A DNA stretch of 64,000 bases from Candidatus Doudnabacteria bacterium RIFCSPHIGHO2_01_48_18. GTDB lineage: Bacteria; Patescibacteriota; Doudnabacteria; UBA920; 2-01-FULL-46-14. Shown piece by piece: positions 36,314 through 62,497 of this stretch (the stretch's first letter is position 1; each line of letters opens with the position of its first letter). Where the stretch lies: positions 53,423-117,422 of the forward strand of contig MFEF01000003.1 in assembly GCA_001777515.1 (NCBI GenBank). The letters run 5' to 3'. Both the position numbers and the translations under genes were made by a program. The notes under the pieces are model-generated. The model saw only the letters and a program-made list of their open reading frames with translations, did no database searches and was not told the origin of the DNA.

Positions 36314-38515
36314 TTAATCTATCTCGTAAACATAAATCGCTTCGCCCAAATTTTTCAGGCGGTAATAATCAAAATCAAAATAAAGACCGAGTTTGTTGTC
36401 CATGCTGAAATGCTCGCCAGGGGCGGCTGATCCAAAAATTTGCTTGGCGTGCGTTGGCCGCGGTTCATTGGTAAAAAGGTAATACTGCGCCGGCAGGTCA
36501 AAATCTTCTCTTTTTCGGCGCGCATCCACCACCAACGACGCAAAGTCAGCGCCGAGATTGCGCTCAATGGTTTGTCTGCACCTTGTCGAGCAAAATCGCT
36601 CTTCGAGAAGCGCGGCAGATTTTGCGTTCAGCGGAAACTGCAGGCGCGACACGTCATTGACTATAATCACCCGTTCCGAATTTAGACTCTCTGCGGCCCA
36701 ATCGGCGGCCAGGTTGTAGGTGGTCGGCCGCGCAAGATAACAAAGCGTCAGCGCGTAAACCAGAAACGATAGCGCTGCGCTCACTGCTAGGATTTTATTC
36801 CAGCGAAATTCGAGACTCGCCAAAATGAGTCCCAGGAAAAACGCCACCGGCACGAGGTAGCGCAAAAACGGATCAACCGAGCTGACCCAGGGCGCCACTA
36901 TGCTGATGGCGGCCAAATAAACAGCGAGGTACAGAAGGGAGAGCCAGAACAGCACGCGATCGCGGATACCGCGCGTAAACAAAAGCGGCATAAGCAAAAA
37001 CGGGAACATCAGGACCGTCCGTTTTAAATACAGCCAAAACGAAGCCAGCGTGCCGCCGAGATCAATACCGCCGGCTGCCGGACTCGATAAGATCGTGGCG
37101 ACCTGGTCGAGAATATTTTGCCAATTCATGGCCGTAACCGCAGCTACAACCGCAGTCCCGGCAAGCGCAGATTTGAATATTACGCCATAAAATTGCCGTT
37201 CACGGCGAAACACGAACAGCAGCACTGCCACCGCTAAACCGACGGCATAAAAATTGAACGGAAAATTGGCCAGCGACAACGCGGCAAACAATATGGACCA
37301 AAAGATCGCTCGCCGCGATTTGGCGGTAATCGCCGCGTAGAGATAATAAAGCGAGGCAAGCGTGAGCACTGTCGTCAACACCCAGACCTTGGTGGTGCGA
37401 AACATTGCAGTGACAATGATGCTCGTCATCACGAGCACGGTGATACTCGCGCGCCGCGAAAATTTATACAGCAGAGCCGCGGCTATGATTGCAAGAACAG
37501 CGCTTGAGCCGCGCGTAACGAGATAAACCGACGAGAGATTATCCACTACCTGTTCTTTGAGCGCGGCTAGATCAAATCCAAAAAACGGCCAGGCCAGTGC
37601 CAGATATGCCGCGACAAACACATAGCTGAGCAAATAGGTCACGGTCGCGTACGGCACATCCCCCACTGCCGGCAAAACAGTTTTGTTCTCAAGCGCGCGC
37701 AGCACCCCGCCCACATTGGGTGATTCGTCAGAAATGACGTTTGTCAAAGGCAGCGCGTGCGCGAGCCCCACAAAAAAACTCAAGGACAGCAGAACAAGCA
37801 CAAGAAGCTCGAGCCATTTACCGGCAAACCTGACCTTGACTACAGACAGAAACGCTTCCTTGATTTCTTTGAGGGAAAAATTGGACACGCCGCGCGCCCG
37901 ATTCACAAAAACAATCGGCACCTCGGCAAATTCTGCTCCCACTTTGGATAGCGCAAACGACAACTCAGAAAGCACAATGTATCCTTTGGCGCGAATCGCA
38001 TTCAAATCAAGCTTGCGGACCAGCGCTGCCGGGTACACTCGATAGCCATTTGTGTAGTCGCTGTACCCAAGCCCAAGCACTACGCTCGCGTAAAAATTGG
38101 CAAATTTGCTAAAGATGCGGCGTGAAAGCGGCCAGCCGACGATCTTGCTGCCGCGCATGTACCGCGAACCGATTACTACCGTATCAGGGGCGGCTTTGGC
38201 AAGCAGCTCCCCGAGCGCCTGGGGATCATGGGAAAAATCCGCATCCATCTCCACCAGGAAGTCATAGTTTTTTTCAAGCCCGTATTTGAGCCCCTCGATG
38301 ACCGCTGAACCGCGCCCGCCCTTGCCAGAGCGGTGAATCAAAAATAAATTCTCGCGGGTTTTTTGCAATTCCAAAATAAGCTGGTCTGTACCATCGTTCC
38401 CGTCATCAACAACCAAGATATCAAGGCCAAGGTTTTGCCCTGTTACTGATTCAACGAGCTTGGCTATATTTTCCCGCTCGTTATAGGTTGGGATGATCAC
38501 CAGCGTCTTAGCCAT
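36314..38515 (-). CDS. Bifunctional GT2 (Dpm1/ArnC-like polyprenyl-phosphate glycosyltransferase) fused to a polytopic GT-C-like membrane domain
   Basis: N-terminal VIIPTYNERENI...VVDDGNDGTD (GT2), followed by ~13 TM helices and a C-terminal soluble domain. Confidence 0.8.
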   Translation of the reverse strand: MAKTLVIIPTYNERENIAKLVESVTGQNLGLDILVVDDGNDGTDQLILELQKTRENLFLIHRSGKGGRGSAVIEGLKYGLEKNYDFLVEMDADFSHDPQALGELLAKAAPDTVVIGSRYMRGSKIVGWPLSRRIFSKFANFYASVVLGLGYSDYTNGYRVYPAALVRKLDLNAIRAKGYIVLSELSFALSKVGAEFAEVPIVFVNRARGVSNFSLKEIKEAFLSVVKVRFAGKWLELLVLVLLSLSFFVGLAHALPLTNVISDESPNVGGVLRALENKTVLPAVGDVPYATVTYLLSYVFVAAYLALAWPFFGFDLAALKEQVVDNLSSVYLVTRGSSAVLAIIAAALLYKFSRRASITVLVMTSIIVTAMFRTTKVWVLTTVLTLASLYYLYAAITAKSRRAIFWSILFAALSLANFPFNFYAVGLAVAVLLFVFRRERQFYGVIFKSALAGTAVVAAVTAMNWQNILDQVATILSSPAAGGIDLGGTLASFWLYLKRTVLMFPFLLMPLLFTRGIRDRVLFWLSLLYLAVYLAAISIVAPWVSSVDPFLRYLVPVAFFLGLILASLEFRWNKILAVSAALSFLVYALTLCYLARPTTYNLAADWAAESLNSERVIIVNDVSRLQFPLNAKSAALLEERFCSTRCRQTIERNLGADFASLVVDARRKREDFDLPAQYYLFTNEPRPTHAKQIFGSAAPGEHFSMDNKLGLYFDFDYYRLKNLGEAIYVYEID

Positions 38516-39371
38516 GATAGTATTTTATAGTTTCAGCTAGCCCCTTTGCCAGGGAAAACTTGGGCCTGACAATATTTTGGAATTTACTCAGCTTGGTCGG
38601 TTTATCATCTTCCTTAAAATTGTTTTTTATCGCGATTTTTTTTCCAGATAGCTTGATTATCATCCTCACGATTTCATTTACGCTAAAATTTTCGTTGTTT
38701 CCTATTGTAAAAAAACCCTCGTTGGCTTTTTCCGCTGCAATCAGATTGGCCGTGAGATCATCAATATAGATGAATTGCAGCTTGCGCTTGCCTTGCCCCC
38801 AAACCTCGACTTTGTTTTTCGCTTTGGCCACCTTGATGATGGTTGCGGGGATAAAATTGGCAGTCTCCGGGTCAAAATTGTCGCCCGGGCCATAAATCGG
38901 CGCGGAGCGAATGACTTTTACATCCATTTTGAACTCACGACTAAAAACGGCGAGCAGTAACTCATTTATTTTTTTTCCCAACACATACCCGTCCGCAATA
39001 TTGTCTTCCGCATATTCTACAATGGTTGAACTAAGGTATATAATTTTTTTTGCCTTTGATTTCCCGAGAGCATTTAAAAAAGTTGCGAAGGGTAAGACAT
39101 TATCAGAGGCGAACCGGAATGGATGAGCGGTATGAAAACGCAGATTCTTCTTGGCACCAGCTACATAGTAGACAGTATCAATGCCTGTTAAAACTTTTTT
39201 ACAAAACCGGGGGTCGGCAAGATCTCCATCTTTGCGGGTGACAGCAACAATTTTTCGTCCGCTTTTTTTTAACACAGAAGAAAGCCGGCGGCCGACAAAA
39301 CCACCAGCGCCAACGACTAAAATTTTATTTGTCGATGAGGATGTTGTCATCGCCTTTTTGGTAGCGCTCAA
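38508..39371 (-). CDS. NAD-dependent epimerase/dehydratase family protein (possible GDP-4-keto-6-deoxymannose reductase/epimerase)
   Basis: Rossmann motif [12 protein letters not shown]. Overlaps gmd, consistent with a GDP-sugar pathway. Confidence 0.75.
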
Positions 39372-40389
39372 GGTCGTACTTGGCCATAATCCTCACTAGA
39401 TCCTTAAACTTCACTCTTGGTTCCCAGCCTAAAATCCGTTTGGCTTTAGCAGCATCGCCTTGCAGAATATTTATTTCCGTTGGCCGCAGGAAATGCGGGT
39501 TGAGCTCCACGATCAATTTGCCGGTTTTGGGATCAATCCCTTTTTCCTCGGCGCCCTCCCCTCTCCATTCCAGAGGAATATCCAAAACGTTGCAGGTTTC
39601 CTCAACGAATTCTCGCACGGTGTGTGCTTCACTGGTCGCGATAACAAAATCTTCCGGTTTGTCCTGCTGCAGCATCAGCCACATAGCCTCCACATATTCT
39701 TTGGCGTATCCCCAGTCACGCTTGGCGTCCAGGTTTCCGAGGACCAGTTTTTCCTGCAGTCCCAATTTGTAGCGCGCAAGGCTTTGCGTGATCTTTTTGC
39801 TGACAAAATTTTCACCGCGTCGCGGCGATTCGTGGTTAAATAAAACGCCATTCACCAAAAACATGCCATATGATTCACGGTAAGTATAAACAATCCAATA
39901 CCCATAAAGTTTTGCCACGCCGTAAGGATTGCGCGGCAAAAACGGCGTGGTTTCGTTTTGCGGAACCTGCGTAGTGTTGCCGTAAAGCTCGCTGGTCGAT
40001 GCCTGGTAAAATTTGGTTTTTTTCTCAAAACCAAGGATGCGCAAAGCCTCAATCATGCGCAGCGTGCCAAGCGCGTCTATGTGCGCGGTGTATTCCGGGG
40101 TTTCAAACGAGACCTGGACATGAGACTGCGCGCCAAGGTTATAGATTTCGTCAGGTTCAACTTTTTTAATGATCCGGATAATGTTCGAGGAATCGGTCAG
40201 GTCGCCGTATTCGAGGTGAAAATACGGGTGCCGGTCAAACAAATGGTGGTGGAGATGGTCAATGCGCCAGCGGTTAAACGTGGAAGCGCGCCGCACCACG
40301 CCATGGACTTCATAACCCTTGGCCAGCAGGAACTCTGCCAAATACGACCCATCCTGGCCGTTTATTCCAGTAATTAAAGCTCTTTTCAT
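39325..40389 (-). CDS. gmd: GDP-mannose 4,6-dehydratase
   Basis: [27 protein letters not shown] and the full GMD SDR signature; 354 aa. Confidence 0.95.
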
Positions 40390-40390: not shown

Positions 40391-41581
40391 CTATTTAAAG
40401 AAATTATAGAGGTTTTTCACAATATAATCGAGCTCAGCTCTCCCCATGAGCTGGTGGCAGCCGACATAGAAGCCAGAGTTATTGATCCAATCCGCGACCG
40501 GGTAGTTTTTGGCTTTTAGCTTATAGCGCTTTTGCAAATATGGCTGGTTGATCAAGGGCAGCATGTCCCTTGTTTCAATGCCGCGATTTTCCAGAAAATT
40601 TACCAGCTCTTTCTTTTTTATTCCGGCGTTTTTTCGAATCACCAGCGGAAACATCATGAAGGCGTGTTCGGATTCCGGGTTCTCAAACGGCAGCTGCAAA
40701 TACTTTTCTAATCCCTTCAATTTGCTCTTGAGATACTGCGCGTTCTGCCGGCGTTTTTTGATAACGCGGGGAAGCTCTGGCAGCTGCGCGCAGCCCAAAG
40801 CCCCCTCAAGCTCAGTCGCTCGAAAGCTATAGCCCGGGCGGATAAACCGAAAGCGCTTGGCAATGATTTCTTCGCGCGCCTTGCCTTTTTTGCCTTTGTC
40901 ATCATCAATACTGATGTAAATGCCGTCTCGGCCGTGGTTAGCAAGCGACCGCAAAACTTCGGCGTATTTTTTGTTACTGGTTAAAGCCAAACCGCCCGCG
41001 CCCGTAACGATCAGGTGCGCCGCATACGTGGAAAAACAAGAGATATCGCTCATGCTGCCCACTTTCTTGCCGCGATAAGTTACATACATGCTTTCACAGG
41101 AATCCTCAATAACCTTGAGCTTATGTTTTTCTGCCAATTTCATGATTGGCTGCATGTCCGCGCTCTGTCCAAACAGATGCACGGGGATGATCGCTTTGGT
41201 GCGGCGGGTAATTTTTTTCTCGATTAACGCTGGATCAATATTGTAGGTGTGGGGGTCAACATCAACAAACACCGGCTTGAGGTTCTGCATGAGCACCACG
41301 TTAGCGGTCGCAACAAAGGTCAGCGCCGGGACGATGACCTCATCGCGATCCTGCCAGTTTCCAAGCTCCTTGAGGGCAGCCACAGCGATGCGCAGTGCCG
41401 AGGTGCCGCTATTGACCATGACTGCGAACTGGCTGTCGTGGGCAGAAGCAAATTCTCTCTCAAATCTCTTGATAAACGGGCCATAAGAAAGGCGCCTGTT
41501 TTTCAGGGCCTGGTTTACGTATTTTACGGCTGCCGGGCTGATTTCTACGCAGCCGACCCCGAGATTCTCTTTGTTCACCAT
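40391..41581 (-). CDS. DegT/DnrJ/EryC1/StrS-family PLP aminotransferase (perosamine-synthase-like)
   Basis: 396 aa aspartate-aminotransferase fold, next to gmd. Confidence 0.85.
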
Positions 41582-41611: not shown

Positions 41612-42589
41612 TTAAAGCGGTTTTGGCCTTAACCCTTTCACGACTAAATAGACAAGCCCTCCCAATAAAATAAGAGGCAACCCGACAGCCGCAAACATGC
41701 CCTGCTCATTGTTTAGATTATTTCCGGCCAGCCATTTCAAAAACGGCAAGCGGTCTTCCAGCAGATCAAACATTTTGGTATATTTGATCGTTGTGTCGTC
41801 CTCGAGATAATTAAAATGATCCTTCAAGTCTCTTATCATCGTATCCTGCAGCTCCTGCATTTTTAGCCGTGTTGCGTCATCAGCGCCAGTGTACGCCATC
41901 TCATTGAGCTCTACTTCCATTTGCGAAAAAGAGGCGCTTCTCGTCCAAAGTTGTGACTGGGCATCATCAACAGAGAAAGAAATAAAAGTCGCATTATTCA
42001 ATCCATGAGTTGCGTCGTTCCTATTTATATACACTCGCCTGCGACGCTGCTGTATCGTTAAAATCGGACGAAGATCGCTATAATCAACACCGAGTGTGGT
42101 TAAATGCAACTTTAGTTCATCAGTTTGCCCTGCAGTCAATCTTGTTAGTGACGGCTGTCCCGCACTGCCTTCAGGCATTTCAAATTTAATCTCATTGCGA
42201 CTGTCAACATTGCCGGTGTCGGCCAGCTTATCATCGCCACTCAATTTGAGCTGAACTAATTCTTTGTGCGCTCGTGAATCAAGACGATCAGAACGGACGC
42301 GGTAACGGAGTCCTCCTTTTCTCTGATATAGATCAAGATTCCTTGTATCAAAATACGTGTCTGTAAAATCCTCATCTCCGTAAGAGCTTGAAAAATCAAG
42401 ACCTAGATTCCGAACTTCGCGATTATCATCTACATATCTACTCTTCAGATAATTGAAAATTTCATCGCTATTTCCTTCCGGATAAGCCAGGTTGAAATCA
42501 TCCTCAATGCGCACGTCGTCCTGAGCTGAGACAACAAACGCCTGAAAGACGAATAAAAATGCGAAAAATAATACGAGCGCTTTTTTCAT
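41612..42589 (-). CDS. Hypothetical secreted protein with a C-terminal membrane anchor
   Basis: Signal peptide plus a C-terminal TM helix; 325 aa. Confidence 0.5.
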   Translation of the reverse strand: MKKALVLFFAFLFVFQAFVVSAQDDVRIEDDFNLAYPEGNSDEIFNYLKSRYVDDNREVRNLGLDFSSSYGDEDFTDTYFDTRNLDLYQRKGGLRYRVRSDRLDSRAHKELVQLKLSGDDKLADTGNVDSRNEIKFEMPEGSAGQPSLTRLTAGQTDELKLHLTTLGVDYSDLRPILTIQQRRRRVYINRNDATHGLNNATFISFSVDDAQSQLWTRSASFSQMEVELNEMAYTGADDATRLKMQELQDTMIRDLKDHFNYLEDDTTIKYTKMFDLLEDRLPFLKWLAGNNLNNEQGMFAAVGLPLILLGGLVYLVVKGLRPKPL

Positions 42590-43707: not shown

Positions 43708-43867
43708 GCATGATGAGCGCGCCGACGAGCAGGAATAAAATCAAAATTGGCGCGAGCCACCATTTCTTGCGTTCTTTCAGAAACTGCCAGAACTCGAAAA
43801 CAAGGCCTCGATTTTTTGGTTCATTATCATTAATCATGTGCGTATTGTTCAGAATCCCACATATCAT
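43661..43867 (-). CDS. Small membrane protein (68 aa)
   Basis: Single TM helix; small membrane proteins of this kind often accompany carbamoyltransferases. Confidence 0.35.
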   Translation of the reverse strand: MICGILNNTHMINDNEPKNRGLVFEFWQFLKERKKWWLAPILILFLLVGALIMLGQSSALSPFIYSLF

Positions 43868-46020: not shown

Positions 46021-46029
46021 AAACCAATA

Positions 46030-56741: not shown

Positions 56742-58024
56742 CTGACTTTGAAAACGTCGCTGATAGGCTTACCGGCGAGGTTTTGGCGAAGCTGCTTAGT
56801 GATTAAAAGGCGCTTGAGCTTTGTAAAGACTTTTTTGTAAGCCGCAAGTATCCCATCGAGGTCTTCTTTGCTATGCGCATAGGACATATTGTGTGAGCCG
56901 CTCCACAAGAAACCCGCTTGCAGTATTTCCTGCTGAATGTAGGTTTTGATCTCCAGGGGTTTATAGCCATAGCCTTCAGAAAACAAGAACAGCTGCCACG
57001 ATGGATGCCCAGTGAGCCTGATAACATCGCCAAGGCCTGTATCTGCGATAAGTCTGCGGGTATGCTCCTGCAGATACTCGCCTTTCCTGCGAACCTTTTC
57101 GATCACGCCTTTGCGCTCGATTTCCTTGATGGTGGCAATCGCAGCGGCCAGCGAGAGAGTCTCGCCGAGATATGAACCGGAAAAGAAGATATCATTGACC
57201 TTCTCCATGTATTTCTTTTTTCCCACGAGGACCGAGAGGGGCATCCCGTTAGCAATAGATTTGCCGAAACATGCCAGATCCGGGATGACCCCAAACAATT
57301 TCTGGGCGCCACCAAGGTCAAAGCGAAAGCCAGTGATCATTTCGTCAAAAATCAGAAGAGCCCCGTGTTTATGCGCAAGATTTTTTACTTTCTGCAGGTA
57401 ATTGTCAGCTGGAAAATCAGTGTTCATTGGCTCGAGGATCACGGCCGCGACCTCATTTTTATGCTGCTTAAATATTTTCTCTAGGGATGAGATGTCATTG
57501 TAAGCAAATTTGTGGGTCAGTTTCCTTACGGCCTCAGGCACTCCAAGATATCTAGTTGTGGAACCAATATACCAATCATGCCAGCCATGATAGCCGCCGA
57601 CTGCAACATGTTCGCGGCCAGTGACCGCGCGCGCAAGACGCACCGCCGCTGAGGTCACGTCAGAGCCGGTTTTGCCGAAACGAACCATTTCCGCTCCAGG
57701 GATATGCTTGGTAATCAGCTGGGCAAGCTCGTATTCGAGAGGCGAGGGCAGCGAAAAAACAATGCCTTTGTCGAGCTGTTTTTTGATAGCATTGTCCACG
57801 GCCGGGTATTGATACCCTAAAATGATCGGCAGCAGACCATTGATCATATCCACGTATTCATGGCCGTCAATGTCCCAGACATGAGAGCCTTTCGCGTGTG
57901 TAATGAACATTGGCGCAGCACCATCAACATACACCAGATGGCTTTTGCTGAATGTTTGGGAAGCAAGCGGGATAACCTCTTTTACTTTACGGAGGAATTT
58001 GTTGCTTTTTGTGAATTTGCGCAT
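56738..58024 (-). CDS. Class-III (GSA-aminomutase-like) PLP aminotransferase
   Basis: 428 aa with AT-III fold motifs (DEMITGFR and a lysine region). Confidence 0.85.
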   Translation of the reverse strand: MRKFTKSNKFLRKVKEVIPLASQTFSKSHLVYVDGAAPMFITHAKGSHVWDIDGHEYVDMINGLLPIILGYQYPAVDNAIKKQLDKGIVFSLPSPLEYELAQLITKHIPGAEMVRFGKTGSDVTSAAVRLARAVTGREHVAVGGYHGWHDWYIGSTTRYLGVPEAVRKLTHKFAYNDISSLEKIFKQHKNEVAAVILEPMNTDFPADNYLQKVKNLAHKHGALLIFDEMITGFRFDLGGAQKLFGVIPDLACFGKSIANGMPLSVLVGKKKYMEKVNDIFFSGSYLGETLSLAAAIATIKEIERKGVIEKVRRKGEYLQEHTRRLIADTGLGDVIRLTGHPSWQLFLFSEGYGYKPLEIKTYIQQEILQAGFLWSGSHNMSYAHSKEDLDGILAAYKKVFTKLKRLLITKQLRQNLAGKPISDVFKVR

Positions 58025-58035
58025 GATTGCTAAAA

Positions 58036-58815
58036 TTAATTATTTAAAAATTTTTTATCTTCATCTAAAGCTGATTGCCAGCCCGCGTTCTGCTTGTTTT
58101 CAGAGTTGATTTGGGCGATATCAGGATTTGCCTCCAGAAATTCTACGATCTCCTGCCACCGGACAGTTCGGGCCTTATCTCCAAAATGATCGCGGATCTT
58201 TGAGAGCAGCTTATAGTCCTGAGGATAATCAAGAGTCAATCTGTATTGAGTCAATTTTCTCTCATTCTGGCAGTAATAAACCTTAAACATTTCCGGGTTT
58301 TGCCAGAAATAAAATGTCACGTGTTCCCGGTGGCTAGGAAGCTTTGCCTCTTGCCAGGCTCTTTTCAGATTTTTAAAAGAAAATACCTCAATGTCCAGAC
58401 CGTCAGGAAAGCTGTATGGCTCAAGGCTGTTGGAGACAAAATCATAATCCTTATCAAGGTAAGTCTTGATTACCTGATCGAGAAGTCGTGGATCAGAAAA
58501 TGGACAATCGCCCGTGAGCCTGACCACGACATCATCATCACCTAGGGACATACTCGCGGCGGCCTGGTAATACCGATCGAGCACATCTGTCTCGCTGCCT
58601 GCGTAATATTTTTGACCAATACTCAGTAAATAATTCACAAGGCTCTGGTCGTCTGGATTTGTAGTTGTGGCGACGAGTACGTTATCTATTAATGTCGCCT
58701 GCTTCACGCGGTCCAGCATGAAACTCAATACCGTATGCCCTTTGCCAAATGGCAGGAGGACTTTCTTGGGAAGCCTGGTGGAGCCGAGCCTGGCTTGTAT
58801 GATAACTAAAACCAT
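58036..58815 (-). CDS. Cytidylyltransferase (SpsF/PseF/NeuA-like CMP-sugar synthetase family)
   Basis: LVIIQARLGSTRLPKKVL N-terminal motif. Confidence 0.8.
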   Translation of the reverse strand: MVLVIIQARLGSTRLPKKVLLPFGKGHTVLSFMLDRVKQATLIDNVLVATTTNPDDQSLVNYLLSIGQKYYAGSETDVLDRYYQAAASMSLGDDDVVVRLTGDCPFSDPRLLDQVIKTYLDKDYDFVSNSLEPYSFPDGLDIEVFSFKNLKRAWQEAKLPSHREHVTFYFWQNPEMFKVYYCQNERKLTQYRLTLDYPQDYKLLSKIRDHFGDKARTVRWQEIVEFLEANPDIAQINSENKQNAGWQSALDEDKKFLNN

Positions 58816-59534
58816 TTGTGATAATCTATTGCGCTCGCAGTGATTCTAAATCCCGCTCCCTGATAGAGCCGCTGCGAAACAATATTTCTCCCTTCGGTTA
58901 CTACTTCGAATTTATCAAAACCTTGTTTGCGCATTTCATTCAAAAACTCTGTGAGCATAATCTTACCGATCCCCTGTCCCTGAAACTTGCGATTTACCCC
59001 AATCAATGTCAGGCTGATACCTGCGGCTGTTTGTTTGTAGCCGATGTATCCTGCAATTTTTTTCTTGTCAGCCAAAACATAAATGCCATGATCTTTTTTA
59101 CCTGACCCGAGATTTTTCATCCACTGGATATAAAGCTGATCACATGCTTTTCTGGAAAAATGCTTATCAAAATAAAACCTGCTTGCGGTATAGAGATTTT
59201 TTGAAATACGGGAAAGTTCCGGTAAATCCATTTTCCGGCATTGACGCAAGATAAAATTTGCTTTGCCAATTTTTGCTGGTCTATAACCCATATCTGTCTC
59301 AAGCATATAGGTCACCCGAAAATTGGAGAAATGAAAACCGTACTGCTCCGCCAAGTCGACAATTTTGCCATCATCAGCTGGTGCCCGGTAAAATAAACAT
59401 CTGATTTTGTTCTTTTTGCAAAATTGCAATACACGCTTCATGTCAGCGTCAGTGATACGCGAGCGGTTCAAGCGGGCAATATTGAACCCAAAAAAATCAC
59501 TGTCCCAATTAAGTTTTTCAACTAAGGCTGTCAT
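58806..59534 (-). CDS. GNAT-family N-acetyltransferase (PseH-like position)
   Basis: FQGQGIGKIMLTEFL acetyl-CoA binding motif. Confidence 0.75.
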   Translation of the reverse strand: MTALVEKLNWDSDFFGFNIARLNRSRITDADMKRVLQFCKKNKIRCLFYRAPADDGKIVDLAEQYGFHFSNFRVTYMLETDMGYRPAKIGKANFILRQCRKMDLPELSRISKNLYTASRFYFDKHFSRKACDQLYIQWMKNLGSGKKDHGIYVLADKKKIAGYIGYKQTAAGISLTLIGVNRKFQGQGIGKIMLTEFLNEMRKQGFDKFEVVTEGRNIVSQRLYQGAGFRITASAIDYHKWF

Positions 59535-60301
59535 GCTAATATTTCCTTTAATTTTTTCAGCATCAAGATGAGCTTCTTATCATCTTTGTAGTACTCCAGT
59601 GTCATATACTGCAAATTGGGACACCGTGACACAAGCTTTCTAACCATGTCCCAATCGTCGTCCTCAAGCGATTCATGGATGTCCTTGGCGAGTGTTTCAT
59701 TTTTGTCGGGGCGGCTGATGTGCATCTGTATGGCGCGGTCCAGGTTTAATCTTCCTAAATAATCCTCCAGTGCGATCTTTTTGTTAATGGCAGTGATTTG
59801 CGCGTGCGCCATATCCAGTAAGAATTTCATATCAAATTCAGACATCAGTTTATTTAGAAACTCAGGTGTGGTGACGATCTCATATGCCCCTGTTGGGTAA
59901 TAGTTGGTATTTTCTACGCCTTTTTGAAATTTGCGCCCAACTGCCGTCTCTAATTTTTCTAGATTTCTGCGGGCATTCCCTATGAGTTCTGATTCCGCAA
60001 GCTTTTCGCCCGAGGGCACGAACATGTCATCCTCAATCGGCGGCTTGAAGTAGCAAGAGTTAACATGAAAAGTCACCAGCTGCGGATTGTTACTGCGAAT
60101 TATATTGGCAATTTTTTCGACTTCTTCCGCAGACCACACATCCACAACACTCCAGTCACAGTGATATATGCGCGGCAAATCGCTCTCGATCGGGTTTGAG
60201 TATTCTCTCAGCTCCACAACGTCTGATAGCTCCAAAATCTCTTTCTGCAATGAAGAGTTGTTAAAGAGTTTTGAGATGGGAGTAGCAATCTTTGGCTTCA
60301 T
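59531..60301 (-). CDS. Hypothetical protein, possibly a xylose-isomerase-like TIM barrel
   Basis: 256 aa with weak VEN.../LLDMAHA motifs. No confident assignment. Confidence 0.35.
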   Translation of the reverse strand: MKPKIATPISKLFNNSSLQKEILELSDVVELREYSNPIESDLPRIYHCDWSVVDVWSAEEVEKIANIIRSNNPQLVTFHVNSCYFKPPIEDDMFVPSGEKLAESELIGNARRNLEKLETAVGRKFQKGVENTNYYPTGAYEIVTTPEFLNKLMSEFDMKFLLDMAHAQITAINKKIALEDYLGRLNLDRAIQMHISRPDKNETLAKDIHESLEDDDWDMVRKLVSRCPNLQYMTLEYYKDDKKLILMLKKLKEILA

Positions 60302-60317
60302 AATCCTTGCTAGATAT

Positions 60318-61151
60318 TTACGTTTCCCGGCGATAAATCCTGATCGGTTCCTCCACTGGGAGGGATTTGATTTCGCCGTTTCCCAGCATGGTTTCCAGCT
60401 GGCGGATTTTCTCTACTAACTCCTTTATATCTCCGCCGTCAGCCGACATGCTGTGGTCAGCTCCGCTTCTCGTTTTGTCAGTAGTAAAATGCTTTTCAAT
60501 GATCCTAGCACCAAGCGCTACCGCGTACACGCACGCCTCAGCGCCTAGCGTATGGTCCGAATATCCGACTGGGCAGGAATAATTTTGCAGCAGAGAATTG
60601 ATAATGTTCAGGTTGACCTCTTCTTTTGGCGCCGGGTACGACGACACACAGTGGAGAATCGCGTACTCGGTCCCGTATTTTTCAAAAATCTTCACTGCCG
60701 TGTCAATCTCCTCGCGGCTTGCCATGCCCCGCGAGATGATCGTTGGTGTGCCGGTTTTGGCCACAGCCTCGAGAAGCACCTTGTTAACGATATCAAACGA
60801 GGCAATCTTCATCAGCGGCACCTCAAGGCTCTGTAAAAACTCTGCCGCCTCAGGATCAAATGGCGTGGAAAAAAACATTAAGCCTTTTTGGTCTGCGTAC
60901 TCTTTGATTTTTCGCTGCTGGTCATAAGAAAGCTCGCGCTGTTTCAGACCCGCAAAAATCGGAGAATCAGCTTTGGCCCGCTTTTCCGCGGTATAGGTTT
61001 GAAATTTGATCGCGCTTGAGCCAGCCGCTTTCGCTGTGTCCACCATTTTGAAGGCGAGATCAAGATCGCCATCATGGTTAATGCCAGCTTCCGCAATAAT
61101 AAATGTTGGCTTGTTCCGGCCGATATTCAATTCTATAAATTTTTTTGACAT
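60318..61151 (-). CDS. NeuB-family ulosonic/nonulosonic acid synthase (second copy; PseI/LegI/NeuB-like)
   Basis: PTFIIAEAGINHDGDLDLAFKMVDTAKAAGSSAIKFQ signature. Confidence 0.85.
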   Translation of the reverse strand: MSKKFIELNIGRNKPTFIIAEAGINHDGDLDLAFKMVDTAKAAGSSAIKFQTYTAEKRAKADSPIFAGLKQRELSYDQQRKIKEYADQKGLMFFSTPFDPEAAEFLQSLEVPLMKIASFDIVNKVLLEAVAKTGTPTIISRGMASREEIDTAVKIFEKYGTEYAILHCVSSYPAPKEEVNLNIINSLLQNYSCPVGYSDHTLGAEACVYAVALGARIIEKHFTTDKTRSGADHSMSADGGDIKELVEKIRQLETMLGNGEIKSLPVEEPIRIYRRET

Positions 61152-61190
61152 ATGCTTAATTAATCGTTTTGAGACAAGAAATTGGCAAAA

Positions 61191-61958
61191 TTATTGATTA
61201 AGTGTGAAGCCGCCGTCGATAACAATATTTTGCCCTGTAATATAGCCTGAATCGTCTGAGGCCAAAAAACAGACTGTGCCAACCAGGTCATCAGTATAAG
61301 TCATGCGCTTCATCGGCGTTTTTTCCAGAAAATTATCTATGAATACTTGTTTCTGGTTATTAAACACTCCGCCCGGACTAATCGCGTTGACAGTAATGTT
61401 ATGCTCGCCGAGATAAGCGGCTAGATATCTAGTCAGCTGAATAATCCCAGCTTTGGTAGCCGCATAAATATCAGAGCTGTTGCGGCCGGAATCCCCATAG
61501 ATCTTTTTGTCAGCAGGCACAACTCCATACATTGAAGCAGTATTGATGATTTTGCCGCTCTTGATTTTGATCATTTTGCGGGAGAAGATTTTCGAACAAA
61601 GAATCGTGCCTTTGATGTTGACCTTCATCACATTGTCTATTTCCTCTTCAGTACGCTGCTCGAACGGCGTGAAAACCGCGATACCGGCATTGTTGATGAG
61701 GACACCCACATCGCTAGCCTCGGCAGCGCATGCTTCGACCGATTTTTCGCTCGTTACATCGAGTTTTATGTATTTATAATCTGCAAGTCCTTTGTCAGCT
61801 AGCGCTTTGGCAAAATCGTTATTTATTTCGTCCTGAATGTCAGTGATGTAAACAAATGCTTTACTCTCCAGCAAAGCCGTCACGAACGCCTGACCAAGCT
61901 GGCCATTGGCTCCAGTAACAAGAATTTTCTTACCTTTTAGATCGTATTGGTTCTTCAT
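61191..61958 (-). CDS. Short-chain dehydrogenase/reductase (SDR)
   Basis: TGANGQLG motif plus YAATK. Confidence 0.85.
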   Translation of the reverse strand: MKNQYDLKGKKILVTGANGQLGQAFVTALLESKAFVYITDIQDEINNDFAKALADKGLADYKYIKLDVTSEKSVEACAAEASDVGVLINNAGIAVFTPFEQRTEEEIDNVMKVNIKGTILCSKIFSRKMIKIKSGKIINTASMYGVVPADKKIYGDSGRNSSDIYAATKAGIIQLTRYLAAYLGEHNITVNAISPGGVFNNQKQVFIDNFLEKTPMKRMTYTDDLVGTVCFLASDDSGYITGQNIVIDGGFTLNQ

Positions 61959-61963
61959 GGTGG

Positions 61964-62497
61964 TTATGAATTAGGATTAAATTTTGCTAACCGAACTTCA
62001 TCCATAAAACCATCCCTGCTCCGACTATGTTCTTTTAAAACCGCTTCTTCATGAAAACCGTTTTTCAAAAAAGCTTTGATTGACCCCTGGTTCGCGCTAT
62101 AAGCTCCGGCAATGATCTTGTGAAGCCCCAATTTTTCAAAACCATAATCACTGATGAGTCGGATGGCTTCCGTGGCAAAACCCTGACCCCACGAATCTTT
62201 GTCTCCGATCATGATGCCAATCTCGCCGCGGCTGTGACCAGCATGCACTGGTCCGAGTTTGATAGTACCTATCATTTTATCGCTATCTTTTCTGACAATC
62301 GCAAAAAAATATGTGTTTGACTCAGCATTGCGGTCCGCAATATATTGCTTAACGCTCTCCATGGTGTGCGTTTGAAAACGGCTTTCCATGTACTGGTTGA
62401 CCTCAGGGTTGTTTAACCAGACGGGGTACTCTGCTGTAGCATCATCATCAGTCAGCGGCCACAATTTTATTTTTTCACCGTCCAGGGTCACGTTCAT
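61964..62497 (-). CDS. GNAT-family N-acetyltransferase (RimL-like)
   Basis: 177 aa with a GNAT core and WGQGFATEA motif. Confidence 0.8.
   Translation of the reverse strand: MNVTLDGEKIKLWPLTDDDATAEYPVWLNNPEVNQYMESRFQTHTMESVKQYIADRNAESNTYFFAIVRKDSDKMIGTIKLGPVHAGHSRGEIGIMIGDKDSWGQGFATEAIRLISDYGFEKLGLHKIIAGAYSANQGSIKAFLKNGFHEEAVLKEHSRSRDGFMDEVRLAKFNPNS

What the first reader, a model, noticed from the sequence alone, without database searches (positions are those of the whole stretch)
36314..62497. Unusually rich ulosonic-acid glycan cluster: two NeuB synthases, two cytidylyltransferases (one fused to a KdsC-like phosphatase), plus carbamoyl-, methyl- and acetyl-transferases and a GDP-perosamine branch
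On a single strand the cluster carries the following.
- GDP-mannose 4,6-dehydratase, an NAD-epimerase and a DegT aminotransferase, i.e. a GDP-4-amino-4,6-dideoxymannose (perosamine)-type branch.
- Two NeuB-family synthases (47394-48263 and 60318-61151), both lacking the C-terminal SAF domain.
- A SIS isomerase.
- A cytidylyltransferase fused to a KdsC-like HAD phosphatase (48815-50002), and a second SpsF/PseF-like cytidylyltransferase (58036-58815).
- Two GNATs, a class-III aminotransferase, three SDRs and two xylose-isomerase-like TIM barrels.
- A NodU/CmcH carbamoyltransferase with three tiny membrane proteins, a SAM methyltransferase, and two membrane SGNH hydrolases (O-acetyl handling).
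- GT2 and two KpsC/KpsS-like (Kdo-transferase-family) GT-B proteins, and a GT2/GT-C fusion (36314-38515).
This predicts two different CMP-activated ulosonic acids (pseudaminic/legionaminic-like and/or Kdo-like) that are N-acylated, O-carbamoylated, methylated and acetylated.
No single known pathway uses this set. The cytidylyltransferase-phosphatase fusion and the SAF-less NeuB paralogs are uncommon.
Basis: partly seen in the sequence, partly recalled or inferred. Interest (0 to 1): 0.6.

Follow-up and report, generated by a model that had tools for sequence, protein, structure and literature searches.

The report
Two-ulosonic-acid surface glycan locus, CPR bacterium
A tiny uncultured groundwater bacterium (Candidatus Doudnabacteria) devotes more than 30 kb, next to its type IV pilus genes, to a surface glycan. 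The locus contains two separate gene cassettes for sialic-acid-like acidic sugars; both cassettes recur in many other uncultured bacteria, and I found no biochemical characterisation of either.

Summary
The gene content is real. All genes from 36314 to the window end lie on the minus strand. They include two SAF-less NeuB synthases (35% identical), a cytidylyltransferase fused to a KdsC-type phosphatase, and a second SpsF-like cytidylyltransferase.

The rarity claims fail. The fusion occurs in at least 272 species across many phyla, and about 30% of NulO synthases lack SAF.

The "perosamine" aminotransferase has His where the catalytic Lys should be, as in ColD. That branch is more likely colitose-type.

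Each synthase belongs to its own conserved cassette.
- **Cassette A:** NeuB-1, a GmhA-type isomerase, the fusion protein, SDR, TIM barrel, SDR. It follows Kdo/Kdn logic through phosphorylated intermediates. The cytidylyltransferase carries the Arg gatekeeper of Kdn-specific enzymes. The true GmhA-like isomerase allows a C10 acid made from heptose-7-P.
- **Cassette B:** SDR, NeuB-2, a DUF692/MNIO-like barrel, GNATs, a cytidylyltransferase and a class-III aminotransferase. It recurs in 23 of 23 testable metagenome loci and matches no characterised pathway.

One transferase (55227-56741) models as a KpsC/WbbB-type Kdo transferase.

The locus is flanked by an initiating transferase, a Wzy_C/TPR ligase-like protein and type IV pilus genes.

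Verdict: a new variant of a known kind. All products are inferred.

The parts
31524..33692 (-). Wzy_C (O-antigen ligase / PglL-TfpO family) protein with TPR repeats. Candidate en-bloc glycan ligase or polymerase. It sits between the pilus genes and the glycan genes.
   Evidence: Pfam Wzy_C 76.7 bits plus TPR. The neighbouring genes are PilB, PilC, a pilin, PilM and PilN.
33800..35173 (+). Bac_transf initiating polyprenyl-phosphate sugar-phosphate transferase.
   Evidence: Pfam Bac_transf 220 bits.
36314..38515 (-). GT2 (polyprenyl-phosphate glycosyltransferase-like: AglJ, PpgS, ArnC) fused to a membrane domain of about 9 TM segments that matches no family.
   Evidence: TM scan. No Pfam hit for residues 241-733 at E<=5.
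38508..39350 (-). GDP-4-keto-6-deoxymannose epimerase/reductase-like SDR (Fcl/ColC-like; weak match).
   Evidence: NCBIfam GDP-L-fucose synthase 90.8 bits, cutoff 500. The top PDB hits are GDP-fucose synthetases at 58 bits. The public gene call gives 280 aa.
39325..40389 (-). GDP-mannose 4,6-dehydratase (Gmd).
   Evidence: TIGR01472 535 bits, above the 415 cutoff.
40391..41581 (-). DegT-family PMP enzyme with His189 in place of the catalytic Lys. Probably a ColD-like NDP-4-keto-6-deoxyhexose 3-dehydratase.
   Evidence: In the alignment '[16 protein letters not shown]', the His aligns with ColD His188 (the residue is N in the 3B8X entry) and with the Lys of aminotransferase 7B0M.
41612..42589 (-). 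CYTH-like domain protein with an N-terminal signal/TM segment and a C-terminal TM anchor. Extracytoplasmic; role unknown.
   Evidence: Pfam CYTH 27.8 bits. TM scan.
42625..43707 (-). Membrane-anchored SGNH/GDSL hydrolase 1 (O-acyl handling on the outer face).
   Evidence: Lipase_GDSL_2 32.2 bits, just under the 32.9 cutoff. One N-terminal TM segment.
43830..45572 (-). NodU/CmcH-type carbamoyltransferase.
   Evidence: Carbam_trans_N 291 bits and Carbam_trans_C 239 bits.
45572..46020 (-). Two small single-TM ORFs of 81 aa (45572-45817) and 71 aa (45805-46020), next to the carbamoyltransferase.
   Evidence: ORF list, TM scan, no family hit.
46030..47397 (-). Membrane-anchored SGNH/GDSL hydrolase 2.
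   Evidence: Lipase_GDSL_2 50.7 bits. N-terminal TM segment.
47394..48263 (-). NeuB-1. SAF-less ulosonate(-phosphate) synthase of the clade that is genomically coupled to the cytidylyltransferase-HAD fusion (cassette A).
   Evidence: Pfam NeuB 261 bits. Below the NeuB and PseI equivalog cutoffs. An orthologue lies beside the fusion in 55 of 61 loci. Clade placement.
48274..48828 (-). GmhA-type sedoheptulose-7-phosphate isomerase (cassette A).
   Evidence: 47-48% identical to the GmhA enzymes of C. jejuni and B. pseudomallei, with the H/E/Q/H and phosphate-binding motifs conserved. NCBIfam 208 bits, cutoff 276.
48815..50002 (-). CMP-ulosonate synthetase (CMAS type) fused to a KdsC/Kdn-9-P-phosphatase-type HAD domain (cassette A).
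   Evidence: Arg196 aligns with the Kdn gatekeeper Arg196 of PpNeuA and is invariant in 20 fusion proteins.
49996..50835 (-). SDR (like gluconate-5-dehydrogenase / KduD); cassette A tailoring.
   Evidence: Orthologues at 53-59% identity in full cassette A loci.
50832..51662 (-). AP_endonuc_2 TIM barrel related to UlaE (L-ribulose-5-P 3-epimerase); cassette A tailoring.
   Evidence: Orthologues at 31-45% identity in 8 non-redundant loci.
51647..52495 (-). Second SDR of cassette A.
   Evidence: Orthologues at 46-51% identity.
52476..53756 (-). Soluble 426-aa putative GT-B ulosonic-acid transferase.
   Evidence: No Pfam hit. NCBIfam BFO_1060 family (the Tannerella Pse/Leg transferase family) 48 bits, cutoff 200. 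A 48%-identical orthologue follows a methyltransferase in a Parcubacteria locus.
53753..54448 (-). SAM methyltransferase (Methyltransf_11).
   Evidence: The public gene call gives 231 aa.
54445..55230 (-). GT2 glycosyltransferase.
55227..56741 (-). 504-aa GT-B transferase with the KpsC/WbbB (beta-Kdo transferase) fold. Candidate transferase for the cassette B sugar.
56738..58024 (-). Class-III (GSA-aminomutase-like) aminotransferase, cassette B.
   Evidence: Present in 18 of 23 cassette B loci.
58036..58815 (-). SpsF-like cytidylyltransferase, cassette B.
   Evidence: Present in 20 of 23 loci.
58806..59534 (-). GNAT N-acyltransferase (WecD-like), cassette B.
   Evidence: Present in 12 of 23 loci; replaced by a formyltransferase in L089.
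59531..60301 (-). DUF692/MNIO-family TIM barrel with a conserved His/Asp/Glu metal-ligand set. Signature gene of cassette B.
   Evidence: PF05114 51.4 bits, cutoff 25. Invariant E130, D163, H166, D207, H209, E236. AF2 pLDDT 95.5; the top fold matches are TglH and MbnB.
60318..61151 (-). NeuB-2. SAF-less synthase of the cassette B clade; closest solved relative is 6NCS.
   Evidence: Present in 22 of 23 loci.
61191..61958 (-). SDR of cassette B.
   Evidence: Present in 21 of 23 loci.
61964..62497 (-). GNAT (Acetyltransf_3; weakly PseH-like).
62500..64000 (-). ABC exporter of the HepA/MsbA/PglK type. It is 593 aa on the full contig and is cut by the window end.

Best explanation
The region is the core of a surface-glycan assembly locus of at least 35 kb in a Candidatus Doudnabacteria (CPR/Patescibacteria) bacterium.

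**Proposed assembly route (inferred from gene content).** The glycan is probably started on a polyprenyl phosphate by the Bac_transf enzyme. It is extended by GT2 and GT-B transferases and exported by the MsbA/PglK-like ABC protein. A Wzy_C/TPR ligase-like protein would then hand it on. That protein lies directly beside the type IV pilus operon, so pilin or other surface proteins are a plausible acceptor.

**Three activated-sugar branches feed the glycan.**

1. *GDP-sugar branch.* Gmd, a ColD-like PMP-dependent 3-dehydratase and an Fcl/ColC-like reductase would give a GDP-3,6-dideoxyhexose of the colitose type, not perosamine.

2. *Cassette A follows the Kdo/Kdn logic through phosphorylated intermediates.*
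   - A GmhA-type isomerase makes an aldose phosphate.
   - NeuB-1 condenses it with PEP.
   - The fused KdsC-type HAD domain removes the phosphate.
   - The fused CMAS-type domain makes the CMP-sugar. It carries the Arg that gates for a 5-hydroxy (Kdn-type) substrate.
   - SDR, a UlaE-like TIM barrel and a second SDR re-set stereochemistry by oxidation, epimerisation and reduction.
   - My preferred reading (about 0.4) takes the isomerase at face value: sedoheptulose-7-P is converted to glycero-manno-heptose-7-P, and the product is a 10-carbon 3-deoxy-ulosonic acid.
   - Plain or epimerised Kdn from mannose-6-P is about equally likely.

3. *Cassette B is a separate, conserved and uncharacterised route to an N-acylated amino-ulosonic acid.*
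   - It comprises an SDR, NeuB-2, a DUF692/MNIO-like metal barrel, two GNATs, an SpsF-like cytidylyltransferase and a class-III aminotransferase, with a DegT protein just beyond the window end.
   - Amination is probably by oxidation followed by transamination.

**Transfer and decoration.** The KpsC/WbbB-fold protein (55227-56741) and the BFO_1060-like protein (52476-53756) would transfer the two CMP-sugars. The carbamoyltransferase, the methyltransferase and the two outward-facing SGNH proteins would decorate the glycan.

**Shown versus inferred.** Domain identities, motifs, folds and cassette conservation are shown. All substrates, products and the acceptor are inferred.
For: **Organism.** A 100% identical protein comes from a Candidatus Doudnabacteria MAG.

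**Gene content.**

**Cassette A**
- A NeuB-1 orthologue (median 55% identity) lies next to the fusion in 55 of 61 loci of at least 12 kb.
- The full set (NeuB-1 at 52-72% identity, the fusion, both SDRs and the TIM barrel, with or without the SIS protein) occurs in Peregrinibacteria, Nitrospiraceae, Alphaproteobacteria and other Proteobacteria.
- The SIS gene is enriched in loci that have the TIM barrel: 5 of 8 against 5 of 73, Fisher p = 5e-4.
- The SIS protein is 47-48% identical to crystallised GmhA enzymes, with catalytic and Zn ligands conserved. Cassette SIS proteins resemble true GmhA (35-54% identity) about as much as they resemble each other (30-83%).
- The HAD catalytic motifs are intact.
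- Arg196 aligns with the Kdn gatekeeper Arg196 of PpNeuA and is invariant in 20 fusion proteins.
- I saw no heptose kinase or heptose nucleotidyltransferase in the precomputed Pfam lists (1-41500, 52000-64000) or my own family scans (36314-63990; 41500-52000 rests on these alone).

**Cassette B**
- Within 6 kb of the DUF692-like gene, in 23 metagenome loci with at least 5 kb on each side, I find NeuB-2 type in 22, SDR in 21, DegT in 21, the cytidylyltransferase in 20, the class-III aminotransferase in 18 and the GNAT in 12.
- Gene order is the same in L088-L090.

**Transferases.**

**ColD-like histidine.**

**Export, ligase and pilus context.**

**Precedents**
- The phosphorylated Kdn route in B. 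thetaiotaomicron and P. parvum (PMC6200933).
- A CMP-activated ulosonic acid with a longer-than-C9 backbone, reported in Magnetospirillum (bioRxiv 10.64898/2026.04.20.719630).
Against: - No product has been measured for any member of either cassette.
- Most NeuB-1/fusion loci (about 70 of 81) have no SIS gene nearby. The core pair can therefore run on a ubiquitous aldose phosphate such as mannose-6-P, which favours Kdn.
- The SIS protein and every other key enzyme score below the NCBIfam equivalog cutoffs.
- The cytidylyltransferase keeps the Lys after GGS that Kdn-specific enzymes are reported to lack.
- The DUF692-like protein is only marginally closer in fold to MNIO oxidases than to ketose 3-epimerases, so its chemistry is open.
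- Adjacency to the pilus genes does not prove that pilin is the acceptor.
- The Wzy_C protein could be a polymerase or a ligase for a cell-wall polymer.
- The genes could serve more than one glycan.
- The co-occurrence statistics are not corrected for phylogeny and rest on tblastn hits.
Confidence: 0.6

Rival explanations
1. Cassette A is simply the bacterial CMP-Kdn pathway: mannose-6-P plus PEP gives Kdn-9-P, then Kdn, then CMP-Kdn. On this view the GmhA-like protein only supplies mannose-6-P from fructose-6-P, or is there for another reason. The SDRs and the TIM barrel make a Kdn epimer or act elsewhere.
For: - The enzyme triad is the same as in the characterised B. thetaiotaomicron / P. 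parvum route.
- The HAD domain scores equally well on the KdsC and Kdn-9-P phosphatase models.
- The Kdn gatekeeper Arg is present and invariant.
- Most loci with the NeuB-1/fusion pair lack any SIS gene.
- The locus also needs mannose-6-P for GDP-mannose, the Gmd substrate.
Against: - The SIS protein is a typical GmhA with its substrate- and metal-binding motifs unchanged. It is as close to real GmhA enzymes as those cassette proteins are to each other.
- I know of no GmhA that makes mannose-6-P (own knowledge).
- The SIS gene also occurs in Peregrinibacteria cassettes that have no Gmd.
Confidence: 0.35
2. One reading: the two cassettes make canonical pseudaminic, legionaminic or neuraminic acids. 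These would be 5,7-diacylamido or 5-acylamido nonulosonic acids made from UDP- or GDP-GlcNAc.
For: - Cassette B has two aminotransferase types and two N-acyltransferases.
- One GNAT is weakly PseH-like and the other weakly WecD-like.
- Other CPR loci that carry a homologue of the same GT-B transferase have NeuB+SAF, DegT and Epimerase_2 cassettes of the ordinary kind.
Against: - None of the PseB, PseC, PseH, PseI, PseF, LegB or LegC models reaches its cutoff.
- The window has no PseG/LegG-type hydrolase or 2-epimerase.
- A homologue of the upstream NAD epimerase/dehydratase (L086 5947-6915) accompanies cassette B in only 7 of 23 loci; other dehydratases were not queried.
- Both synthases lack SAF and fall outside the SAF-containing group.
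- Cassette A has a sugar-phosphate phosphatase and a gatekeeper Arg. In PpNeuA that Arg clashes with a 5-N-acetyl group.
Confidence: 0.12
3. The region is not one pathway. It is a mosaic of independent islands that happen to be adjacent and co-oriented, for example a cell-wall teichulosonic-type polymer, a protein glycan and a separate deoxyhexose polysaccharide.
For: - Cassettes A and B each occur alone in other genomes, in different neighbourhoods.
- Double-NulO clusters with varying partners are common in Chloroflexota and CPR.
- More glycan genes (GT4, CotH, VTC) continue beyond the window.
Against: - About 28 consecutive genes lie on one strand. Many have overlapping stop and start codons, and there are no intervening housekeeping genes.
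- The window shows only one initiating transferase, one exporter and one ligase-like gene.
- Base composition is uniform.
Confidence: 0.25

Closest known systems
CMP-Kdn pathway of Bacteroides thetaiotaomicron (Kdn-9-P synthase BT1714, Kdn-9-P phosphatase BT1713) and Prymnesium parvum (Kdn-9-P synthetase, CMP-Kdn synthetase PpNeuA)
   Same: - A NeuB-family synthase is combined with a KdsC-type HAD phosphatase and a CMAS-type cytidylyltransferase.
- The route runs through a phosphorylated ulosonate.
- The gatekeeper Arg of Kdn-specific synthetases is present.
   Different: - The phosphatase and synthetase are fused into one polypeptide.
- The synthase has no SAF domain.
- A GmhA-type isomerase, two SDRs and a UlaE-like barrel are added.
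- The Lys after GGS is retained.
- The product is not known to be Kdn.
Kdo pathway: KdsD, KdsA, KdsC, KdsB
   Same: The four-step logic is the same: a SIS-domain ketose-P/aldose-P isomerase, PEP condensation, a KdsC-family phosphatase, then a CTP_transf_3 cytidylyltransferase.
   Different: - The isomerase is of the GmhA type, not KdsD.
- The synthase belongs to the NeuB family, not the KdsA/DAHP-synthase family.
- The cytidylyltransferase is closer to CMAS/PseF than to KdsB.
Vertebrate CMP-sialic acid synthetase (CMAS), which has a C-terminal KdsC-like domain
   Same: The two-domain order is the same. Both mouse domains appear among the PDB hits (1QWJ and 3EWI).
   Different: - Here the HAD catalytic motifs are intact.
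- The gene sits next to a synthase and a sugar-phosphate isomerase, which suggests a working phosphatase.
- The vertebrate C-domain's function is described as unknown (PMC8636478 abstract).
GDP-L-colitose pathway: Gmd, ColD, ColC (for example E. coli O55)
   Same: - Gmd is present.
- A DegT-fold enzyme has His at the ColD His188 position.
- An Fcl-like reductase follows; all three genes are adjacent.
   Different: - The identities are low: 190 bits to ColD and 58 bits to Fcl.
- The best PDB match overall is an aminotransferase (7B0M).
- The product was not tested.
KpsC / WbbB / KrKA Kdo transferases (GT-B fold; CMP-Kdo donors)
   Same: - An invariant HP motif is present.
- About a quarter of the close homologues carry a Pfam Capsule_synth hit.
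   Different: - The window protein itself has no Pfam hit.
- Sequence identity is 11-15%.
- The protein has about 505 aa and extra helical insertions.
- The named members of this family come almost only from CPR bacteria.
Tannerella forsythia Pse/Leg-derivative transferases (Tanf_01245 / TFUB4_00887 / BFO_1060 family)
   Same: Both unassigned transferases give weak hits to the NCBIfam BFO_1060 family, at 48 and 31 bits. This family has genetic evidence for nonulosonic-acid transfer (PMC5420450).
   Different: The scores are far below the 200-bit cutoff, so membership is not established.
Legionaminic and pseudaminic acid pathways (C. jejuni, H. pylori, B. subtilis sps)
   Same: Cassette B combines a NeuB-family synthase, an SpsF-type cytidylyltransferase, aminotransferases and N-acetyltransferases.
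   Different: - There is no PseB/LegB-type dehydratase model hit above cutoff.
- There is no PseG/LegG.
- The synthase has no SAF domain.
- A class-III aminotransferase and a DUF692/MNIO-like barrel are present. I do not know these as components of the Pse or Leg pathways (own knowledge); neither appears in the C. jejuni Leg enzyme table read.
PglL / TfpO O-oligosaccharyltransferase systems for pilin glycosylation (Neisseria, Pseudomonas, Acinetobacter)
   Same: A Wzy_C-family membrane protein lies next to type IV pilus genes and next to a lipid-linked glycan assembly locus that has an ABC flippase-type exporter.
   Different: - The Wzy_C protein carries TPR repeats and was not compared with PglL or TfpO.
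- No glycosylated pilin has been shown in any CPR bacterium. It has only been predicted by software in Saccharibacteria (PMC12206443).

Membership tests
CMP-Kdn pathway (BT1713/BT1714/CMP-Kdn synthetase type) | KdsC-type HAD phosphatase with catalytic DxD and GDxxxD motifs | tested here: met
   The motifs DFDGVFTD and GNDVND are present. 107.6 bits to KdsC and 106.4 bits to the Kdn-9-P phosphatase model, both below cutoff.
CMP-Kdn pathway (BT1713/BT1714/CMP-Kdn synthetase type) | Arg at the PpNeuA Arg196 gatekeeper position of the cytidylyltransferase (selects 5-OH over 5-NHAc) | tested here: met
   The query's Arg196 in NNRLGGK aligns with Arg196 in KCRLGEK of 9T4Z. It is invariant in 20 fusion proteins. 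V. cholerae CMAS has Phe at this position.
CMP-Kdn pathway (BT1713/BT1714/CMP-Kdn synthetase type) | Loss of the Lys after the GGS motif, reported for Kdn-specific synthetases (Val23 in PpNeuA) | tested here: not met
   The query has ARGGSKR, so the Lys is retained.
CMP-Kdn pathway (BT1713/BT1714/CMP-Kdn synthetase type) | The synthase condenses mannose-6-P with PEP to give Kdn-9-P | not testable with these tools
   Only NeuB-family membership is shown. Substrate is not predictable from sequence here.
GmhA (sedoheptulose-7-P isomerase) | Catalytic and Zn ligands (His, Glu, Gln, His) and the phosphate-binding S/T-T-S-G-x-S motif | tested here: met
   All are conserved in alignments to 1TK9 and 2XBL, at 47-48% identity.
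GmhA (sedoheptulose-7-P isomerase) | Score above the curated equivalog cutoff | tested here: not met
   PRK13936 scores 207.9 against a cutoff of 276. TIGR00441 scores 186.6 against 209.45.
Pseudaminic / legionaminic acid pathways | PseI/LegI-type synthase (NeuB plus SAF) scoring above the equivalog cutoff | tested here: not met
   The PseI model scores 203 and 254 against a cutoff of 340. NeuB_NnaB scores 255 and 297 against 399.65. Neither protein has a SAF domain.
Pseudaminic / legionaminic acid pathways | PseB/LegB dehydratase, PseC/LegC aminotransferase, and PseG/LegG hydrolase or 2-epimerase | tested here: not met
   All scores are below cutoff. The window has no Epimerase_2 or PseG-like protein.
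GDP-perosamine branch | PLP aminotransferase with a Schiff-base Lys acting after Gmd | tested here: not met
   His189 replaces the Lys.
GDP-colitose-type 3,6-dideoxyhexose branch | Gmd plus a PMP-dependent 3-dehydratase with His at the ColD His188 position | tested here: met
   Gmd scores above cutoff. The His is aligned with ColD His188.
GDP-colitose-type 3,6-dideoxyhexose branch | ColC-type epimerase/reductase | tested here: inconclusive
   The match is only Fcl-like: 90.8 bits against a cutoff of 500, and 58 bits to the PDB GDP-fucose synthetase.
KpsC/WbbB-type Kdo transferases | GT-B variant fold of the beta-Kdo transferases | tested here: met
   [not shown]
KpsC/WbbB-type Kdo transferases | Pfam Capsule_synth (PF05159) match | tested here: not met
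   The window protein has no hit at E<=5. About a quarter of homologues at 54-58% identity have one in the precomputed data.
KpsC/WbbB-type Kdo transferases | The same fold for the second transferase, 52476-53756 | not tested
There is only a weak BFO_1060-family hit.
MNIO / DUF692 (MbnB, TglH, ChrH) | Pfam PF05114 match above the gathering score, plus TIM-barrel fold similarity | tested here: met
   51.4 bits against a cutoff of 25. The top Foldseek hits are TglH and MbnB with TM 0.65-0.71.
MNIO / DUF692 (MbnB, TglH, ChrH) | A conserved multinuclear iron ligand set | tested here: inconclusive
   E130, D163, H166, D207, H209 and E236 are invariant, and H47 and H194 nearly so. They were not mapped residue by residue onto the MbnB or TglH iron sites.
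MNIO / DUF692 (MbnB, TglH, ChrH) | An adjacent partner protein and a RiPP precursor peptide | tested here: not met
   In the window and in L088-L090 the neighbours are sugar-pathway enzymes. Short precursor ORFs were not searched exhaustively.

The most novel reading that the evidence does not exclude
At least one of the two cassettes makes a CMP-activated ulosonic acid of a type not yet described.

- **Cassette A:** it could build a 10-carbon 3-deoxy-ulosonic acid from sedoheptulose-7-P, through a GmhA-type isomerase and a NeuB-type synthase.
- **Cassette B:** it could build an amino-ulosonic acid by a route in which a DUF692/MNIO-family metalloenzyme acts on a carbohydrate rather than on a peptide.

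In this CPR bacterium the product would decorate type IV pili or other surface proteins that contact the host cell.
Probability: 0.4. Interest if true: 0.75.

Novelty: new variant of a known kind. Interest (0 to 1): 0.5.

Why it matters
**Why the organism makes it interesting.** CPR/Patescibacteria are ultrasmall episymbionts with reduced genomes, and type IV pili are implicated in how cultivated members tether to their hosts (PMC12206443). A locus of more than 30 kb that makes two acidic sialic-acid-like sugars, placed beside the pilus operon and a PglL-type ligase-like gene, turns "are CPR pili or surfaces glycosylated, and with what?" into a testable question. I found no paper that links nonulosonic acids with CPR.

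**Why the cassettes matter beyond this genome.**
- The NeuB-1 plus cytidylyltransferase-phosphatase pair occurs in at least 272 species.
- The DUF692-linked cassette has at least 201 metagenomic relatives.
- I found no report of an experimentally known product for either.
- Solving one representative of each would annotate hundreds of loci.
- It could also add a C10 ulosonic acid, or a carbohydrate-acting MNIO-type enzyme, to known biochemistry.

Tried and rejected
- **PtmF as a SIS protein.** I first recalled Campylobacter PtmF as a SIS protein that makes GlcN-6-P, which would have explained the SIS gene. The literature shows PtmF is a 326-aa oxidoreductase, so I dropped the idea.
- **CYTH protein as the missing hydrolase.** I considered the CYTH protein as the missing NDP-sugar hydrolase. 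It has a signal/TM segment at the N-terminus and a TM anchor at the C-terminus, so it is extracytoplasmic. Rejected.
- **Pfam at E<=5.** It found nothing for either unassigned transferase, for the membrane half of the GT2 fusion, or for the tiny ORFs.
- **Schoenhofen 2009 legionaminic acid paper.** It is not held in the library.
- **HAD specificity.** The HAD domain scores do not separate KdsC from Kdn-9-P phosphatase (107.6 against 106.4 bits), so they could not settle the chain length.
- **Reference tree.** A full tree with characterised PseI, LegI, NeuB and Kdn-9-P synthase sequences could not be built because those sequences were not retrievable. The NJ tree uses only two PDB fragments typed in from alignments.
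- **Horizontal transfer.** The composition profile shows no sign of it.

Full report
**Source and layout**

The cytidylyltransferase-phosphatase protein is 100% identical to a protein of a Candidatus Doudnabacteria MAG (RIFCSPHIGHO2_02_FULL), a member of the CPR/Patescibacteria. The same genes are found on NCBI contig MFFJ01000015.1. From 36314 to the window end every long ORF is on the minus strand, and many stops and starts overlap. Base composition is uniform.

**Checking the observation**

Pfam and NCBIfam confirm nearly every domain call at the stated coordinates:
- Gmd, above its equivalog cutoff.
- An NAD epimerase and a DegT-family protein.
- Two NeuB-domain proteins of 289 and 277 aa without SAF.
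- A SIS_2 protein.
- CTP_transf_3 fused to a KdsC-type HAD domain, and a second CTP_transf_3.
- Two GNATs, a class-III aminotransferase and three SDRs.
- A carbamoyltransferase and a methyltransferase.
- Two SGNH proteins with single N-terminal TM segments.
- A GT2, and a GT2 followed by about 9 TM segments.

The corrections are these:
- One "xylose-isomerase-like barrel" is a DUF692/MNIO-family protein (PF05114, 51 bits, cutoff 25).
- Only two tiny TM ORFs are credible.
- The GT-C label has no support.
- The ABC exporter is cut by the window end and is 593 aa on the contig.
- The locus continues on both sides. Upstream lie an HTH protein, a second DegT (ArnB/PseC-like) and an NAD epimerase. 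Downstream lie Bac_transf and a Wzy_C/TPR protein, followed by PilB, PilC, a pilin, PilM and PilN.

**The rarity claims**

- The fusion architecture is common. About 8000 hits were scored, and the top 120 are full-length two-domain proteins at 52-58% identity. Sources name them N-acylneuraminate cytidylyltransferase or YrbI phosphatase.
They span Nitrospirota, Proteobacteria, Chloroflexota, Planctomycetota, Verrucomicrobiota, Acidobacteriota, Actinobacteria, Peregrinibacteria and even a Methanoperedens MAG.
- SAF-less NeuB proteins make up about 30% of 13,941 UniProt NulO synthases (PMC8208679). The closest solved structure to both paralogues is a 290-aa SAF-less enzyme, 6NCS.

On its own refutation criterion, the finding therefore loses the novelty it claimed. 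I found no report of an experimentally determined product for the bacterial fusions.

**The deoxyhexose branch**

The DegT-family protein reads ...[17 protein letters not shown].... In the PDB alignments its His189 lines up with His188 of the GDP-4-keto-6-deoxymannose 3-dehydratase ColD. That position is N in the 3B8X entry and Lys in the aminotransferase 7B0M. Replacement of the Schiff-base Lys by His is the hallmark of the PMP-dependent 3-dehydratases (ColD, E1); this is established knowledge from the ColD structural work. The protein has Gmd on one side, and next to Gmd lies an Fcl-like reductase. The branch is therefore better read as a colitose-type GDP-3,6-dideoxyhexose than as perosamine.

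**Two cassettes, not duplicates**

NeuB-1 and NeuB-2 are 35% identical and the two cytidylyltransferases 20% identical. In an NJ tree:
- NeuB-1 sits inside a large clade made of synthases encoded next to the fusion.
- NeuB-2 groups with the synthases of DUF692-containing loci and with 6NCS.
- SAF-containing enzymes form a third group.

**Cassette A**

- In 61 loci of at least 12 kb, a NeuB-1 orthologue (median 55% identity) lies beside the fusion in 55, and an SDR in 30.
- The full set seen here is NeuB-1 (52-72% identity), the fusion (45-56%), both SDRs and the TIM barrel. It recurs in Peregrinibacteria, Nitrospiraceae, Alphaproteobacteria and other Proteobacteria, with a SIS gene in five of eight such loci. 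The SIS-TIM association has p = 5e-4 (uncorrected for phylogeny).
- The logic parallels the Kdo pathway (KdsD-KdsA-KdsC-KdsB) and the characterised Kdn route, in which mannose-6-P plus PEP gives Kdn-9-P, then Kdn, then CMP-Kdn (PMC6200933).
- The HAD motifs are intact.
- The cytidylyltransferase has Arg at the position of PpNeuA Arg196. That residue gates for the 5-hydroxyl of Kdn and clashes with a 5-N-acetyl group (PMC12934254). The Arg is invariant in 20 fusion proteins. The Lys after GGS, reported as lost in Kdn-specific enzymes, is retained here.
- Together this places the product in the 5-hydroxy, Kdn-like class.

Chain length is open:
- The SIS protein is an ordinary GmhA by every test available. 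It is 47-48% identical to two crystallised GmhA enzymes, all catalytic, zinc and phosphate motifs are present, and there is no sign of a separate subfamily.
- Neither the precomputed Pfam lists (which cover 1-41500 and 52000-64000) nor my own family scans of 36314-63990 show a heptose kinase, a GmhB or a heptose nucleotidyltransferase.
- Taken at face value, heptose-7-P is the aldose that NeuB-1 condenses, which gives a C10 acid.
- Against this, most loci with the core pair have no SIS gene.
- A CMP-activated ulosonic acid with a longer-than-C9 backbone has just been reported in Magnetospirillum (bioRxiv 10.64898/2026.04.20.719630). Such sugars therefore exist, although that one is a diacetamido type.
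- I put C10 at about 0.4 and Kdn or a Kdn epimer at about 0.35-0.4.

The two SDRs are KduD/gluconate-5-dehydrogenase-like. With the UlaE-like barrel they fit an oxidise-epimerise-reduce sequence. This is inferred.

**Cassette B**

- The DUF692-like protein is its signature. Word-indexed search found 35 homologues, and a metagenome scan found 201 relatives.
- In 23 loci with at least 5 kb on each side, within 6 kb of that gene, I find a NeuB-2-type synthase in 22, a DegT in 21, an SDR in 21, an SpsF-like cytidylyltransferase in 20, a class-III aminotransferase in 18 and a GNAT in 12.
- The usual gene order is DegT, DUF692, SDR, NeuB, acyltransferase, cytidylyltransferase, class-III aminotransferase. 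The acyltransferase is sometimes a formyltransferase.
- Two kinds of aminotransferase plus interchangeable N-acyltransferases point to an N-acylated amino- or diamino-ulosonic acid.
- The absence of PseB/LegB and PseG/LegG-type enzymes points to a non-canonical route, possibly amination after oxidation, as in Kdo8N.
- The DUF692-like protein keeps an invariant Glu/Asp/His set and models with pLDDT 95.5. Its best fold matches are the MNIO oxidases TglH and MbnB (TM 0.65-0.71), only slightly ahead of ketose 3-epimerase-like barrels. Whether it is an oxidase or an epimerase is unresolved.
- No paper in the library combines DUF692 or UPF0276 with NeuB or nonulosonic acids.

**Transferases**

- The 504-aa protein after the class-III aminotransferase is 56% identical to the protein in the same position in L089.
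- It has more than 438 homologues, and the named ones are almost all from CPR bacteria.
- It has an invariant HP motif and models well (pLDDT 88.6).
- In other CPR genomes, homologues sit beside ordinary NeuB+SAF nonulosonic-acid cassettes. Ulosonic-acid glycans therefore seem widespread in CPR.
- The 426-aa protein has a 48%-identical orthologue that again follows a methyltransferase in a Parcubacteria locus. It has only a weak hit to the Tannerella Pse/Leg transferase family. Its fold was not tested.

**Overall model and verdict**

The proposed sequence is:
1. Bac_transf initiates.
2. The glycan is extended with a dideoxyhexose and two CMP-ulosonic acids.
3. It is decorated by carbamoyl, methyl and O-acyl handling enzymes.
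4. It is exported by the MsbA/PglK-like ABC protein.
5. It is transferred by the Wzy_C/TPR protein next to the pilus operon.

The acceptor is inferred from adjacency only.

What remains interesting is different:
- Both cassettes are conserved, widespread and, as far as I could find, uncharacterised.
- One may make a C10 acid.
- The other contains an MNIO-family enzyme in a sugar context.
- The locus sits beside the pili of a CPR bacterium.

I rate it a new variant of a known kind, interest 0.5.

Noticed in passing
window 24553-31519 (minus strand): A type IV pilus operon lies directly downstream of the glycan locus. It comprises PilB-like (29780-31519), PilC (28567-29778), a 127-aa pilin with a faint N_methyl hit (about 28181-28564), two proteins of unknown function, PilM (25092-26240) and PilN (24553-25095). 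The Wzy_C/TPR protein (31524-33692) is the gene next to PilB.
   Followed up: partly
L086 1-9998 (contig MFFJ01000015.1, beyond the window end): The locus continues past the window. In order come the rest of the 593-aa ABC exporter, an HTH_17 protein, a 355-aa DegT (ArnB/PseC-like, below cutoffs), a 322-aa NAD epimerase (GalE/ArnA-like), two unknown proteins, DUF4956, a VTC-domain protein, a CotH kinase-like protein and a GT4.
   Followed up: partly
window 59531-60301; loci L088-L090 and L094-L173: A DUF692/MNIO-family subfamily is embedded in sugar-nucleotide cassettes rather than RiPP clusters. Many members come from marine metagenomes (TARA and deep-sea assemblies). No partner protein or precursor peptide is evident next to it.
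   Followed up: partly
L039, L040, L043, L044, L047, L051, L055, L081 (Chloroflexota, including Bellilinea caldifistulae GOMI-1): These loci also carry two NeuB synthases and two or three cytidylyltransferases, including the fusion, within 20 kb. Frequent neighbours are a PtmF-like Gfo/Idh/MocA oxidoreductase, a 2-hydroxyacid dehydrogenase and unassigned proteins of about 480-540 aa.
   Followed up: partly
L091 and L092 (Patescibacteria / Parcubacteria contigs): Other CPR bacteria have large nonulosonic-acid clusters next to homologues of the KpsC-fold transferase. They contain NeuB+SAF, DegT, Epimerase_2, radical SAM enzymes, a pyruvyl transferase and Glyphos_transf. L092 also ends with an SDR and a SIS_2 gene.
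   Followed up: no
window 41612-42589: A CYTH-like domain protein with a signal/TM segment at the N-terminus and a TM anchor at the C-terminus sits in the middle of the glycan operon. An extracytoplasmic CYTH domain is unexpected, and I have no role for it.
   Followed up: no
window 18076-20450 (plus strand): Glucose-6-phosphate dehydrogenase and 6-phosphogluconate dehydrogenase genes (oxidative pentose phosphate pathway) lie in the same window. This pathway is a possible route towards the sedoheptulose-7-P pool.
   Followed up: no
window 58036-58815 and 60318-61151: The closest solved structures to both the cassette B cytidylyltransferase (6OEW, 149 bits) and NeuB-2 (6NCS, 226 bits) carry only generic depositor names. 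From memory, not checked here, I believe both come from Leptospira. If so, a related pair may exist there.
   Followed up: no
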